NCBI GenBank assembly: GCA_016194445.1
Contig: JACQBP010000045.1
Location: 1-44,847 of the forward strand
Length of the DNA: 44,847 nucleotides
Source: Candidatus Liptonbacteria bacterium
GTDB lineage: Bacteria; Patescibacteriota; Minisyncoccia; UBA6257; 2-01-FULL-56-20
Direction: 5' to 3'
Position numbers and translations under genes: made by a program. The notes under the pieces are model-generated. The model saw only the letters and a program-made list of their open reading frames with translations, had not been told where the DNA came from and did not search any database. How positions within the stretch are numbered: position 1 is the stretch's first letter; each line of letters begins with the position of its first letter. Positions 11,789-12,886 of this stretch are shown piece after piece.

Positions 11789-11829
11789 AAATCAAATTTT
11801 AGCAAAAGTTCCCAAAAACCCGCCAACTA

Positions 11830-11927
11830 AACTATCTAACGATCGTAAGATAGTTGAGTTTGAAAAAACATCCCCACCATCCCTCTCTTACCCACTATAG
11901 TATCTAACGATCGCCGGATACTATAGT
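11830..11927. repeat. Two related REP-like palindromes
   Basis: AACTATCTAACGATCGTAAGATAGTT (11830-11855) and ACTATAGTATCTAACGATCGCCGGATACTATAGT (11894-11927) share TATCTAACGATCG. Confidence 0.7.
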
Positions 11928-11957
11928 AAAAACAAAACACCCCGCCGAAGCGGGGCA
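11928..11957 (-). terminator. Terminator of rnpB
   Basis: CCCCGC-TTCG-GCGGGG hairpin followed by TGTTTTGTTTTT on the minus strand. Confidence 0.85.
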
Positions 11958-11962
11958 TTTTA

Positions 11963-12610
11963 TGGCAATTCATAAGCGGGATTCTGTCTCGCCCGTCATA
12001 GCTTTCGCGACGGCGGGATTAACGATCATTTATCTGGGCCTTTGATTACTCGCAGGCTCAAGCGGCACTTCCGAAAACAGCTTGCGCTGTTCGGACACGA
12101 CCTTGCACTCGATAAGGATTTAGCCGTTTCACCTCTGTCTTTTTATCCCTATAACAGAGTTAGACCAAACTAGCTTGGGATTGGATCTCCCTCGTCCTTT
12201 CGAACGAGAGCGTCACTGCTCGCACCTCTACGCTTACGCGCGACGGCTGTTAGCCGCTACCTTTTTATCCTGTTTACACAGGAGAGTGTCCCGACTTTCC
12301 TCCCCCCACCACTTTTCATGCCGACTCGAGACTACCTTTTATTCGCTTTACTAATTCTTTATAAGAATTTTTAAACTGCTTCAGCTTTCTTTCTCGAGTC
12401 AGGGCATCTAACTTAGATCGGTAGATTTCACAGTAGACAAGAACGAAAGGACCTCTGTGTTTCGTTGATTTAGTATCACCCGCATTATGCTCAGATAGCC
12501 GACGCTTCAAATCATTAGTGACACCAATATACAACCTACCGTCCTTTGTACTTTTCAAGACATAAACGCAATACATGAAAAGTGGTGGGGGGCGATCGTC
12601 TGAATTACCA
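11963..12610 (-). ncRNA. rnpB: RNase P RNA with ~250-nt insertion in the P3 loop
   Basis: P1 TGGTAATTCA/TGAATTGCCA; GACGATCGC; CR-I GAGGAAAGTCGGGAC; GGTGAAACGGCTAAATCC; GAGTGCAAG; AGATAAATGATCGT; CR-V ACAGAATCCCGCTTA. Confidence 0.93.
12316..12576 (-). CDS. GIY-YIG nuclease family protein nested in rnpB
   Basis: VYVL...LYIGVT, RRL.EHN.G, LVY.E, A..RE..LK motifs; 86 aa. Confidence 0.92.
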   Translation of the reverse strand: MYCVYVLKSTKDGRLYIGVTNDLKRRLSEHNAGDTKSTKHRGPFVLVYCEIYRSKLDALTRERKLKQFKNSYKELVKRIKGSLESA

Positions 12611-12616
12611 ACCCCA

Positions 12617-12645
12617 ACTATACCCTATACCAACCAAAATAGCAA
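12617..12645 (-). promoter_or_regulatory. Probable rnpB promoter TTGCTA-17-TATAGT
   Basis: Near-consensus hexamers ending 6 nt upstream of P1. Confidence 0.65.
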
Positions 12646-12747
12646 TATGTGGTAATAACGTCTAAGAAAAAATTTATTTCCGAAACCATAAGCGAGAGGC
12701 GAGGTAGAAATCAGTTAGCGAGTAATTTTAATGACTCTTATGTAAAA

Positions 12748-12886
12748 GCAAACAAGATATTCCTTTGGCGCGGCTCGGAGGCCGAGCGGGCAGGGTGTCC
12801 CGCCTTGGCGGGACGAGCGAGGCCGGAGTGCCAGCGAAAGTTCTCGCTGGGAACTTGAGTGGTAGTCAAAGGAATATCTTGTTTGC
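12748..12886 (+). repeat. Dispersed structured element family A, copy 1 (20-bp perfect terminal inverted repeat), nested in an outer inverted repeat 12663-12928
   Basis: GCAAACAAGATATTCCTTTG / CAAAGGAATATCTTGTTTGC; interior highly similar to 17151-17286. Confidence 0.85.

What the first reader, a model, noticed from the sequence alone, without database searches (positions are those of the whole stretch)
11963..12610. RNase P RNA carrying an intact GIY-YIG endonuclease gene as the loop of helix P3
Seen: on the minus strand the rnpB 5' segment (P1/P2, TGGTAATTCAGACGATCGC) is separated from CR-I (GAGGAAAGTC) by ~290 nt. That interval is a perfect 19-bp inverted repeat (12302-12320 / 12574-12592, CCCCCCACCACTTTTCATG) enclosing an 86-aa GIY-YIG ORF. 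The ATG lies at the inner end of one arm and the TGA lies in the other arm, so the ORF is almost exactly the loop. Established: P3 is a length-variable peripheral helix, and GIY-YIG nucleases are common mobile or homing enzymes. Inference: a selfish nuclease gene sits in an essential ribozyme without disrupting its fold, giving a dual ribozyme/mRNA whose start codon is sequestered in the stem. The loop may be retained, or cut out like an rRNA intervening sequence; no group I or II intron core is visible.
Basis: partly seen in the sequence, partly recalled or inferred. Interest (0 to 1): 0.9.

Follow-up and report, generated by a model that had tools for sequence, protein, structure and literature searches.

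The report
Nuclease gene nested inside RNase P RNA
The only RNase P ribozyme gene of this tiny groundwater bacterium carries an intact small nuclease gene inside one of its helices, closed off by a long stem, and the same arrangement recurs in many related uncultured bacteria.

Summary
The only rnpB of this 0.89-Mb genome lies at window 11957-12611 (- strand). Between P2 and CR-I it holds a perfect 19-bp inverted repeat enclosing an 86-aa GIY-YIG ORF. The ATG lies in the 5' arm and the TGA in the 3' arm. Five same-genus rnpB genes have a short, uninterrupted P3 at that position. Contigs from a second sample cross both junctions.

It is not a one-off. The same ORF-in-P3 design occurs in 5 other genera among 400 genomes sampled from the order. 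It also occurs in 26 of 48 metagenome contigs that share the junction; others carry broken or ORF-less forms.

The stem belongs largely to the element. The same arms flank a 70%-identical ORF in a different rnpB helix of another genome, and a related cassette in an intergenic site.

The P3 proteins form one clade under purifying selection. Stem pairing covaries and tolerates G-U but not A-C, which points to selection on the RNA.

Best reading: a selfish UPF0213-type GIY-YIG cassette whose inverted repeats stand in for P3. Whether the loop is retained or cut out by RNase III could not be tested.

GIY-YIG-encoding non-intron insertions are published for CPR rRNA genes. My searches found none for RNase P RNA.

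The parts
12617..12645 (-). Sigma-70-like promoter (TTGCTA, 17-nt spacer, TATAGT) just upstream of the rnpB 5' end. It is the only promoter-like site in 11800-12800.
   Evidence: 1 site found; shuffles give a mean of 1.4, so it is a consensus match only
11957..12611 (-). Whole RNase P RNA gene (class A type) including the insert
12601..12611 (-). P1 5' strand (TTGGTAATTCA); pairs with 11963-11972
   Evidence: homology to G006, where cmscan aligns it as P1
12594..12600 (-). P2 5' strand (GACGATC); pairs with 12021-12027 (GATCGTT)
12574..12592 (-). 5' arm of the inverted repeat, which is the 5' strand of the P3 stand-in. It contains the ATG (12574-12576).
12316..12576 (-). 86-aa stand-alone GIY-YIG (UPF0213-type) ORF, stop codon included
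12302..12320 (-). 3' arm of the inverted repeat, which is the 3' strand of the P3 stand-in. It contains the TGA (12316-12318).
12293..12302 (-). CR-I (GAGGAAAGTC), sharing its first G with the 3' arm
11957..12292 (-). Remainder of the ribozyme core up to the P1 3' strand (11963-11972). It is highly conserved with same-genus relatives.
11932..11963 (-). Intrinsic-terminator-like hairpin followed by a T run, directly after rnpB

Best explanation
A small selfish DNA cassette occupies helix P3 of the genome's only RNase P RNA gene. It consists of one 86-aa stand-alone GIY-YIG nuclease gene (UPF0213 type) bounded by inverted repeats that include its start and stop codons.

Shown:
- The cassette lies exactly where relatives have a short P3.
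- Its two arms are predicted to zip into a 19-20-bp helix between P2 and CR-I, so P1, P2, CR-I and the rest of the core keep their normal registers.
- The arms belong largely to the element, because they appear with it at other sites.
- One clade of these nucleases is found in rnpB P3 in many lineages, alongside empty, degraded and ORF-less alleles.
- The protein is under purifying selection.
- The stem is maintained by compensatory changes that tolerate G-U but not A-C.

Inferred:
- The ORF has no promoter of its own and is transcribed only as part of the rnpB transcript from the rnpB promoter.
- This genome shows no Shine-Dalgarno signal, so initiation should depend on an accessible AUG. Translation would then be possible mainly in the short window before the 3' arm is transcribed, or after the stem is cut. 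Once the stem closes, the AUG is buried and the RNA serves as ribozyme.
- The nuclease promotes spread or retention of the cassette among rnpB alleles in a gain, decay and loss cycle.

Open, about even odds: the ~250-nt loop stays on the mature ribozyme, or RNase III (two homologs are encoded) cuts the long stem. Cutting would release a stem-capped mRNA and leave a two-piece RNase P RNA held together by P1, P2 and the stem's base.
For: Anatomy and fold.

Only rnpB in a 99%-complete genome; rnpA is present.

Empty P3 in 5 of 5 same-genus rnpB genes compared.

Both junctions are seen in contigs of a second sample.

The same ORF-in-P3 design:
- 5 of the 101 other GIY-YIG matches, found in 80 other genomes of the 400 sampled from the order. 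These are G324, G048, G038, G150 and G405, from families f1, f25, f15 and f16.
- 26 of 48 metagenome contigs holding the exact 22-nt arm/CR-I junction. A further 4 have truncated, broken or internally deleted inserts and 18 are ORF-less.

Arms travel with the element:
- L042 has a 70%-identical ORF with arms TCCCCCACCACTTTTACAAA in the helix beyond P15 of rnpB, while its P3 is an ordinary short hairpin.
- G736 has the same arms in an intergenic site after a terminator.
- 70 of 102 family loci have exact inverted repeats of 11 bp or more that bracket the ORF, with related C-rich/G-rich ends.
- 4 of the 8 other paralogs in this genome have such repeats of 12-19 bp.

Protein tree: all 31 P3 proteins fall in one clade of 37 rows (SH-aLRT 90). 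The label needs 5 changes against 27.7 in shuffles, with 0 of 500 shuffles as low.

rnpB-core tree: occupied and empty alleles are interspersed, with 18 changes, at least 4 forced by starred branches. G000 sits in a 97% clade with 7 empty alleles.

Purifying selection: 22 distinct proteins share invariant Y5, Y16, G18, R26, E29, H30, E50, R60 and E61. dN/dS has a median of 0.18 (range 0.07-0.46) in the 21 of 231 pairs with finite dS below 3.

Stem covariation across 23 distinct stems:
- Positions 1-13: 298 of 299 cells paired.
- Positions 14-22: 193 of 207 paired, against 76-130 when the partner is slid by 1-3.
- Positions 16-19 each show 4-6 standard pair types.
- Positions 14-22 show 21 G-T cells and 0 A-C cells.

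The ATG is at stem position 15-18 in 28 of 32 occupied alleles.

Promoter, terminator and translation signals:
- The only promoter-like site lies upstream of rnpB, and a terminator follows it.
- An SD-like 4-mer precedes 34 of 378 long ORFs (9%), against 10% in random 17-mers.
- Two RNase III homologs are encoded.
Against: - No RNA evidence exists for this locus. The RNA runs held only conserved core pieces of relatives. Transcription through the insert, translation and processing are therefore all inferred.
- No nuclease activity, target or transfer event is shown. An 86-aa catalytic domain has no evident DNA-binding part.
- No target-site duplication flanks the P3 copies; the longest direct repeat is 3 nt.
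- The metagenome P3 set was picked by an exact 22-nt arm/CR-I pattern. Conservation of that arm, and part of the clustering in the protein tree, follow from the selection.
- The protein tree has 86 columns, and its key branch (SH-aLRT 90) is not starred.
- G-T versus A-C is counted in cells, not independent events, and coding constraints act on the same bases.
- Outside rnpB the arms show no such bias (9 G-T, 7 A-C, 6 other), so the arms may serve primarily at the DNA level.
- The lack of correlation between protein and rnpB-core identity (Spearman -0.05) may reflect saturation and noisy alignment rather than horizontal movement.
- RF00010 does not reach its gathering score here (67.8 against 100). 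The same holds for 27 of the 41 genomes.
Confidence: 0.78

Rival explanations
1. The GIY-YIG gene is a domesticated host gene, for example a repair nuclease, that has long resided in rnpB P3 and uses the strong stable-RNA promoter. It is inherited vertically and is no longer mobile. Absences are simple losses.
For: Purifying selection and invariant residues. One protein clade is tied to P3. No target-site duplication flanks the P3 copies. Stand-alone UPF0213 proteins are common chromosomal genes in many bacteria.
Against: - 5 of 5 same-genus relatives lack it.
- Occupied and empty alleles are interspersed on the rnpB tree.
- Broken and internally deleted copies exist (L246, L227).
- The same arms and a nested protein occur at other sites.
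- The genome holds 9 paralogs, several of them repeat-flanked at unrelated loci.
- Protein identity and rnpB identity are uncorrelated.
Confidence: 0.12
2. The inverted repeats are only DNA-level terminal repeats of a transposon-like element. Their pairing in the rnpB transcript is incidental, and the host merely tolerates a large floppy insert in a dispensable loop.
For: Related repeats flank family members at many non-RNA sites. Outside rnpB, isolated arm mismatches show no G-T over A-C bias (9 against 7). 14 of 70 loci have flanking direct repeats of 7 nt or more, against 4.5% in a mismatched-locus control.
Against: In the P3 copies the inner stem covaries, with 21 G-T and 0 A-C cells at positions 14-22. 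The stem starts exactly where P3 starts in relatives, between P2 and CR-I. ORF-less alleles keep the stem with many G-U pairs in the 5' arm.
Confidence: 0.06
3. The insert is a self-splicing or protein-assisted intron carrying a homing endonuclease, removed with ligation so that a normal RNase P RNA results.
For: GIY-YIG genes are classic passengers of group I introns (recalled). TIGR01453 group I intron endonuclease gives a weak sub-threshold match of 21.2 bits against a cut-off of 56.
Against: No intron family appears among the Rfam matches at E<=10 in 11900-12700. The 253 nt between the arms are almost wholly the 258-nt coding sequence, which leaves no room for a ribozyme core. In CPR rRNA genes, all GIY-YIG proteins were reported in insertions unlike either intron class (PMC11270868, passages read).
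Confidence: 0.02
4. Assembly chimera, or a dead rnpB pseudogene.
For: The genome is a 48-contig metagenome assembly. RF00010 is below its gathering score.
Against: - Contigs from two samples cross the junctions.
- More than 30 independent contigs and genomes show the same architecture.
- This is the only rnpB in a 99%-complete genome.
- The core is highly conserved with relatives.
Confidence: 0.01

Closest known systems
Insertion sequences in rRNA genes of CPR bacteria that encode GIY-YIG proteins (Tsurumaki et al. 2024, PMC11270868; passages read)
   Same: Same broad group of bacteria. Both are non-intron insertions that encode a GIY-YIG protein inside a structured RNA gene. Insertions are mostly at the top or base of stem-loops, and the taxonomic distribution is patchy.
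   Different: The host RNA here is the RNase P ribozyme. 'RNase P' occurs 0 times in that paper's main text. There the GIY-YIG insertions are described as sparse, at several sites and apparently outside homing. Here one nuclease clade is tied to one site (P3), with conserved arms that carry the start and stop codons. That paper's supplements were not readable, so I cannot say whether its rRNA insertions have such arms.
Intervening sequences (IVS) of bacterial 23S rRNA cut out by RNase III without ligation (as summarised in PMC11270868; examples recalled)
   Same: An extra element at the tip of a peripheral helix, closed by a long duplex. The host RNA stays functional. Distribution is sporadic, and RNase III is encoded here.
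   Different: Classical IVSs are about 100-200 nt. Whether any are coding I recall only in part, and that paper names a 23S_rRNA_IVP family. Excision is not shown here. The host would become a two-piece ribozyme, which I know of only from in-vitro reconstitution (recalled).
Group I intron-encoded and free-standing GIY-YIG homing endonucleases such as I-TevI and the phage T4 Seg proteins (recalled)
   Same: GIY-YIG catalytic domain. Presence/absence polymorphism at a fixed site. Intact, decayed and lost copies, as in the homing-endonuclease life cycle.
   Different: Those enzymes are 200-250 aa with a DNA-binding domain, whereas this one is 86 aa of catalytic domain only. There is no intron. 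Bounding inverted repeats are not a feature of those systems.
UPF0213 stand-alone GIY-YIG proteins (BH0048, PDB 1ZG2; EF2693, PDB 1YWL)
   Same: Best solved relatives, at E 1.2e-9 and 3.8e-6. Same size and single-domain build.
   Different: Those are annotated as hypothetical chromosomal proteins. No link to structured-RNA genes or inverted repeats is on record in what I searched.
Diverged RNase P RNAs of CPR bacteria (Lui et al. 2021, PMC8172020; passages read)
   Same: CPR rnpB genes often fall below Infernal thresholds and show large helix extensions or missing helices. Here too, only 14 of 41 genomes reach the gathering score.
   Different: That paper mentions no protein-coding insert ('GIY' occurs 0 times). 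Its extended helix example is P15.

Membership tests
Bacterial RNase P RNA class A (RF00010) | Covariance-model score at or above the gathering score (100 bits) | tested here: not met
   67.8 bits, E 2.3e-20; nothing at gathering threshold. The model cannot span the 270-nt insert. Uninterrupted same-genus genes also score only 80.6-106.7 bits, and 27 of 41 genomes are below the cut-off. A run with the insert removed was not possible with these tools.
Bacterial RNase P RNA class A (RF00010) | Conserved core: CR-I GAGGAAAGUC, the ACAGAA...GCUUA region near the 3' end, and P4-forming segments in register | tested here: met
   cmscan alignment and a 6-sequence alignment with long invariant runs from CR-I to the 3' end
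Bacterial RNase P RNA class A (RF00010) | P1 and P2 pair the 5' segment with the 3' end, and P3 is a hairpin between P2 and CR-I | tested here: met
   P1 of 10 bp and P2 of 7 bp read from the sequence. Both form in the MFE and centroid folds. The 5' segment is one base different from that of G006, which cmscan aligns as P1/P2.
Bacterial RNase P RNA class A (RF00010) | Pre-tRNA 5' cleavage activity | not testable with these tools
   Indirect only: it is the sole rnpB in the genome and rnpA is present.
GIY-YIG nuclease superfamily (PF01541), UPF0213 stand-alone group | Domain match above the curated cut-off | tested here: met
   68.2 bits against a cut-off of 22.6, residues 1-71. PDB 1ZG2 UPF0213 at E 1.2e-9.
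GIY-YIG nuclease superfamily (PF01541), UPF0213 stand-alone group | Conserved motif residues (the two Tyr motifs, Arg, His/Glu) | tested here: met
   Y5, Y16, G18, R26, E29, H30, E50, R60 and E61 are invariant in 22 distinct P3 proteins. Which of these are catalytic is recalled, not tested.
GIY-YIG nuclease superfamily (PF01541), UPF0213 stand-alone group | Nuclease activity | not testable with these tools
   none
Group I / group II intron | Ribozyme core detectable; ORF in a peripheral loop of the intron | tested here: not met
   No intron family among the 7 Rfam matches at E<=10. The ORF fills the space between the arms.
RNase III-processed intervening sequence | Insert at a helix tip, closed by an extended duplex | tested here: met
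   19-20 bp here, and 14-26 bp in 31 of 32 occupied alleles. G405 has 5 pairs, one mismatch, then 7 pairs.
RNase III-processed intervening sequence | RNase III present in the organism | tested here: met
   Two PF14622 matches above the cut-off, 137.4 and 103.9 bits
RNase III-processed intervening sequence | Insert absent from the mature RNA, which is fragmented | not testable with these tools
   No RNA contig covered the insert
Homing endonuclease gene | Presence/absence at one site among related alleles, with decayed copies | tested here: met
Homing endonuclease gene | Sequence-specific cleavage of the empty allele; DNA-recognition domain | tested here: inconclusive
   No domain beyond the 71-residue catalytic match in 86 aa. 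Cleavage is not testable here.
Terminal-inverted-repeat transposable element | Terminal inverted repeats shared by copies at different sites | tested here: met
Terminal-inverted-repeat transposable element | Target-site duplication and a recognised transposase | tested here: not met
   P3 copies have direct repeats of only 3 nt. 14 of 70 other loci have 7 nt or more. The only gene is a bare GIY-YIG domain.

The most novel reading that the evidence does not exclude
These are a previously undescribed kind of bacterial mobile cassette: a bare GIY-YIG nuclease gene whose inverted repeats carry its start and stop codons. The cassette inserts 'seamlessly' because the repeats rebuild what they interrupt. 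They form a helix in a ribozyme here. Elsewhere the right end recreates a TTGAC box, a start codon or a tRNA 5' end. In rnpB the cassette would make the essential ribozyme a one-shot mRNA. After RNase III cuts the stem, the result would be a natural two-piece RNase P RNA plus a stem-capped nuclease mRNA. ORF-less P3 hairpins with the same arms, as in genome G001 and 18 metagenome contigs, would then be relics. That would mean mobile DNA has rewritten a helix of RNase P RNA across a bacterial lineage.
Probability: 0.3. Interest if true: 0.9.

Novelty: new variant of a known kind. Interest (0 to 1): 0.75.

Why it matters
RNase P RNA is one of the few universal ribozymes, and its gene is normally treated as purely non-coding. 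Here an intact, selected protein gene lives inside one of its helices in a whole lineage of uncultured bacteria.

Practical consequence: covariance models miss or under-score such genes. This one gets 67.8 bits, and G038 gets 31.7, so genomes may be wrongly called rnpB-less.

Three questions become directly testable:
- How large an insertion can a catalytic RNA tolerate, and does it work as two pieces in vivo?
- How does a minimal nuclease-only element spread and persist?
- Do mobile elements supply new helices to structured RNAs?

It also extends the known CPR habit of rRNA insertions to a third essential RNA.

Tried and rejected
- **Rfam at gathering threshold on the whole window:** no match. 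The E-value mode was needed.
I used homology to uninterrupted relatives and folding instead.
- **tblastn of the nuclease against 30 relatives' rnpB loci:** only one noise hit at E 4.8. Eight further rnpB hits had no locus. Of these only G038 was looked at later, and it is occupied.
- **RNA evidence:** six RNA runs held 4-9% of the sampled words. The one I laid (X6) covered only 12084-12275, with many differences, so it holds the conserved core of other organisms. It says nothing about expression or processing here. The joints listed have sides of 20-29 letters in conserved core and were disregarded.
- **CR-I-like motif after the stop in L182:** a false positive, because it lies in a coding context.
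- **Co-divergence test:** the Mantel r of 0.55 is driven by near-identical pairs. Without them Spearman is -0.05. I use this only as weak evidence.
- **dN/dS:** 210 of 231 pairs were saturated or undefined, including G000 against G324.
- **Trees:**
  - rnpB tree: 10 rows were left out, 4 with a core cut short by the contig end and 6 without a recognisable 3' motif.
  - Protein tree: rows with internal stops or lengths outside 70-125 aa were left out.
- **Class-level pattern search:** only 1 further genome of 400 matched. The fixed 235-265 gap misses known cases such as G038.
- **Direct repeats as target-site duplications:** none at P3.
- **Shine-Dalgarno upstream of the ORF:** uninformative, because the genome as a whole shows none.
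- **Literature** (library as described in the calls):
  - 'RNase P RNA'+'GIY-YIG': 21 papers, 15 listed, of which 14 were mitochondrial-genome and 1 a chloroplast-genome paper.
  - 'rnpB'+'Candidate Phyla Radiation': 0.
  - 'RNase P RNA'+'Patescibacteria': 0.
  - 'GIY-YIG'+'inverted repeats'+'tRNA genes'+'mobile': nothing relevant by title or abstract.
  - 'GIY-YIG'+'Candidate Phyla Radiation': 5 papers.
  - 'RNase P RNA'+'intervening sequence'+'open reading frame'+'bacterial': nothing relevant.
  - 'YhbQ'+'GIY-YIG': 0.
  - 'RNase P'+'Candidate Phyla Radiation'+'insertions': 3 papers.
  - Supplements were closed, so tables of rRNA insertion sites in PMC11270868 and the RNase P figures of PMC8172020 were not seen.
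Full report
**What is there**

Read on the minus strand, the region runs as follows:
- a sigma-70-like promoter, TTGCTA-17-TATAGT, at 12645-12617; it is the only such site in 11800-12800
- TTGGTAATTCA (12611-12601) and GACGATC (12600-12594)
- a 19-nt arm, CCCCCCACCACTTTTCATG (12592-12574)
- an 86-codon ORF (12576-12316)
- the complementary arm, CATGAAAAGTGGTGGGGGG (12320-12302)
- GAGGAAAGTC (CR-I, 12302-12293)
- about 330 nt of RNase P RNA core, ending in GATCGTT (12027-12021) and TGAATTGCCA (11972-11963)
- a terminator-like hairpin (11963-11932)

The repeat finder gives the two arms as 19 nt, 100% complementary and 253 nt apart. The ATG is the last triplet of the 5' arm, and the TGA lies inside the 3' arm. 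The ORF matches Pfam GIY-YIG at E 8e-19. Its nearest solved relatives are the UPF0213 stand-alone GIY-YIG proteins 1ZG2 and 1YWL.

**Is it RNase P RNA, and is it the working copy?**

Rfam finds nothing at gathering threshold. At E-value threshold RF00010 scores 67.8 bits (E 2.3e-20) over 11957-12350. The model's P1-P3 are forced onto the ORF tail because the model cannot bridge the insert.

The true 5' segment is identified by homology. In the same-genus genome G006 the string TTGGTAATTCAGATGATCGC, one base different, is aligned by cmscan as P1/P2 and is followed by a short P3 and CR-I. A MAFFT alignment with five same-genus rnpB genes shows one gap of about 270 nt exactly at P3 and long invariant runs elsewhere. 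Folding the 655-nt RNA gives P1, P2 and the long stem in both the MFE and centroid structures, with z = -5.1.

The genome is 894 kb in 48 contigs and 99% complete. It has no other rnpB: the next hit scores 9.1 bits at E 0.48. It does encode RnpA. Uninterrupted rnpB genes of relatives also often miss the Rfam cut-off, which only 14 of 41 genomes reach. This agrees with the published note that CPR RNase P RNAs are diverged (PMC8172020, passages).

**Not an assembly artefact**

A 19.5-kb Logan contig of run X1 spans the stretch without a difference, but X1 may be the source sample. Two contigs of a different sample of the same study cross the 3' junction (12230-12461) and the 5' junction (12466-12616) without a difference. 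The strongest argument is recurrence, described next.

**Recurrence**

I searched 400 genomes sampled from the same order with the protein. This gave 101 further matches at E<=1e-18 in 80 genomes, and I fetched all of them.

Five lie in rnpB P3 with the same layout:

| Genome | Identity to G000 protein |
|---|---|
| G324 | 78% |
| G048 | 67% |
| G038 | 66% |
| G150 | 52% |
| G405 | 52% |

These five come from five genera and four families. A sixth candidate, L182, was a false motif match.

A scan of metagenome contigs for the exact 22-nt arm/CR-I junction found 48 contigs, which break down as follows:

| Contigs | State of P3 |
|---|---|
| 26 | intact 83-86-aa GIY-YIG ORF between perfectly matching arms |
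| 4 | ORF cut by the contig end, ORF-length insert without an intact frame, broken ORF, or internal deletion (L264, L251, L246, L227) |
| 3 | same arms around a 10-nt loop |
| 6 | same arms around 43-79 nt with no ORF |
| 9 | short P3 with a variant 5' arm, in several contigs U-rich and wobble-paired |

So intact, decaying and empty states coexist at one site.

**The stem belongs to the element**

The nearest relative in the species-representative genomes is L042, at 70% identity. It is also inside rnpB (RF00010 52.9 bits) but in the helix beyond P15. It is flanked by TCCCCCACCACTTTTACAAA and its complement, while that gene's P3 is an ordinary short hairpin.

A class-level pattern search found the same arms around a GIY-YIG ORF in an intergenic site after a terminator (G736).

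Across the 102 family loci examined, 70 have exact inverted repeats of 11 bp or more that bracket the ORF. Their outer ends are related and C-rich/G-rich. The left arm starts 14-49 nt before the ATG, and the right arm usually overlaps or follows the stop. In this genome 4 of the 8 other paralogs have such repeats of 12-19 bp.

In G000 the stem begins at the very base where P3 begins in G006. The element's arms therefore stand in for P3 rather than sitting on top of it. The P3 of same-genus genome G001 (…ACCGCT GAAA AGTGGTGG…) resembles the arms and may be a relic; that is inference.

**Lineage and selection**

In a tree of 123 family proteins, all 31 P3-borne proteins fall in one clade of 37 rows (SH-aLRT 90). 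Six non-P3 rows are nested within it, including L042. The label needs 5 changes against 27.7 in shuffles. Caveats: the alignment has 86 columns, and the metagenome rows were chosen by the arm pattern.

On a tree of the rnpB core, with the insert left out, occupied and empty alleles are interspersed. There are 18 changes, at least 4 forced by well-supported branches. G000 sits in a 97%-supported group with 7 empty alleles.

Protein identity and core identity are uncorrelated once near-identical pairs are removed. This is weak evidence.

The 22 distinct P3 proteins are 49-78% identical, yet they keep the GIY-YIG motif residues invariant. dN/dS is 0.07-0.46 (median 0.18) in the 21 pairs where dS is measurable.

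**The stem as RNA**

Among 23 distinct stems:
- Positions 1-13 are paired in 298 of 299 cells.
- Positions 14-22 are paired in 193 of 207 cells, against 76-130 when the partner is slid by 1-3.
- Positions 16-19 each show 4-6 different standard pairs.
- Positions 14-22 hold 21 G-T cells and no A-C cell.

G-T without A-C is the asymmetry expected for pairing in the sense RNA. Outside rnpB the arms show no such bias (9 against 7). These counts are cells rather than independent events, and the same bases also encode the protein ends.

The ATG is at stem position 15-18 in 28 of 32 occupied alleles. The stop ends 10-21 nt before the stem's 3' end.

**How it most likely works**

Shown: the layout, its conservation, selection on both the protein and the stem, and the mobility of the arms together with the gene.

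Inferred: the ORF is transcribed only within the rnpB transcript, since the one promoter-like site lies upstream of rnpB and one terminator follows it. The genome shows no Shine-Dalgarno signal: 9% of 378 long ORFs have an SD-like 4-mer, against 10% of random 17-mers. Start-codon accessibility should therefore govern initiation. The AUG is free only until the 3' arm is made about 260 nt later, or after the stem is cleaved. The stem then buries it, and the RNA is a ribozyme with an oversized P3.

Two RNase III homologs are encoded, and a 19-26-bp duplex is a plausible substrate. Excision without ligation, as for 23S rRNA intervening sequences (PMC11270868), would give a two-piece RNase P RNA. 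I put retention and excision at about even odds.

The nuclease presumably drives or stabilises the cassette's spread among rnpB alleles. How an 86-aa catalytic domain finds its site is unknown.

**Comparison with what is known**

GIY-YIG proteins encoded in non-intron insertions of CPR rRNA genes are in print (PMC11270868, passages), as are diverged CPR RNase P RNAs with extended helices (PMC8172020). None of my eight literature searches returned a report of a protein-coding insert in bacterial RNase P RNA. Supplements were closed, and subscription journals are not covered.

I therefore rate it a new variant of a known kind. The new points are the host RNA, the site-specific nuclease clade and the codon-bearing arms that replace a ribozyme helix.

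Noticed in passing
G000 contig C16:7453-10659 (locus L006: 542-835 and 1501-1758): Two GIY-YIG cassettes sit in consecutive intergenic gaps of a cytochrome oxidase-like operon. The order is an upstream unassigned ORF, then GIY, COX3 (PF00510), GIY, COX4_pro (PF03626) and UbiA (PF01040). The second cassette has a 14-bp inverted repeat, and its right arm overlaps the next gene's ATG.
   Followed up: partly
G000 C7:376-603 and C10:13233-13418 (loci L005, L007): Two more paralogs share near-identical 19-bp inverted repeats (CCCAGTACTACAAyTTTGA). Each is flanked by ATG on both sides, directly in front of a downstream ORF. The C10 copy has a premature stop but intact arms.
   Followed up: partly
G000 C29:28353-28553, C44:1613-1822, C16:10511-10723 (L004, L008, L009); also L131, L138, L143, L145, L150, L130: Many family members lie on the same strand directly next to tRNA genes, mostly just upstream. 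One (L130) lies about 260 nt upstream of 23S rRNA. In L131, L170 and L179 the right arm's end appears to run into the 5' acceptor strand of the sequence that follows, and that end is duplicated at the left flank. This was read from the sequence; the following sequence was checked as a tRNA only for L131.
   Followed up: partly
Loci L126-L215: In one subfamily the flanks read ...TTG|ACCCCGCACC...GGTGCGGGGT|TGAC..., so a TTGAC (-35-like) box stands at both ends; the direct repeat GGGGTTGAC reaches 9-10 nt in four loci. In another subfamily the flanks read ATGA|ATCCC...GGGAT|GAAA, at host start codons. 14 of 70 loci have flanking direct repeats of 7 nt or more, against 4.5% in a mismatched control.
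   Followed up: partly
Loci L043-L121 (genome contigs): In Alphaproteobacteria, Flavobacteriia and other phyla, 41-48%-identical small GIY-YIG ORFs are also bracketed by inverted repeats. 49 of 80 loci have an exact repeat of 9 bp or more, often of the type TTGTCATTCCTGCGAAGGCAGGAATCCA. The repeat-bounded design may therefore be widespread.
   Followed up: no
window 11826-11860 and 11894-11927; G000 C45:3223, C43:10299, C31:29727, C10:35310: A small family of long palindromes is centred on CGATCG. There are four perfect 38-40-bp copies elsewhere in the genome and two imperfect ones just downstream of the rnpB terminator. Similar palindromes appear upstream of rnpB in L123 and L259.
   Followed up: partly
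whole genome G000: No Shine-Dalgarno signal: an SD-like 4-mer lies upstream of 34 of 378 long ORFs (9%), against 10% of random 17-mers. Starts were taken as the first ATG, so this is rough.
   Followed up: partly
L122 (G324) and L124 (G038), downstream of CR-I; also G028 (788-nt hit), G039, G024, G020, G034, G010: Several relatives' rnpB genes carry other large ORF-less expansions, for example over 150 nt beyond P15 in G324 and G038. Their Rfam scores drop to 31-43 bits. The origin of these expansions was not examined.
   Followed up: no
same-genus genome G005 and same-family genome G021: No rnpB hit at E<=0.001 in these two genomes (96% and 88% complete). I did not check whether the gene is missing from the assembly or hidden by an insert.
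   Followed up: no
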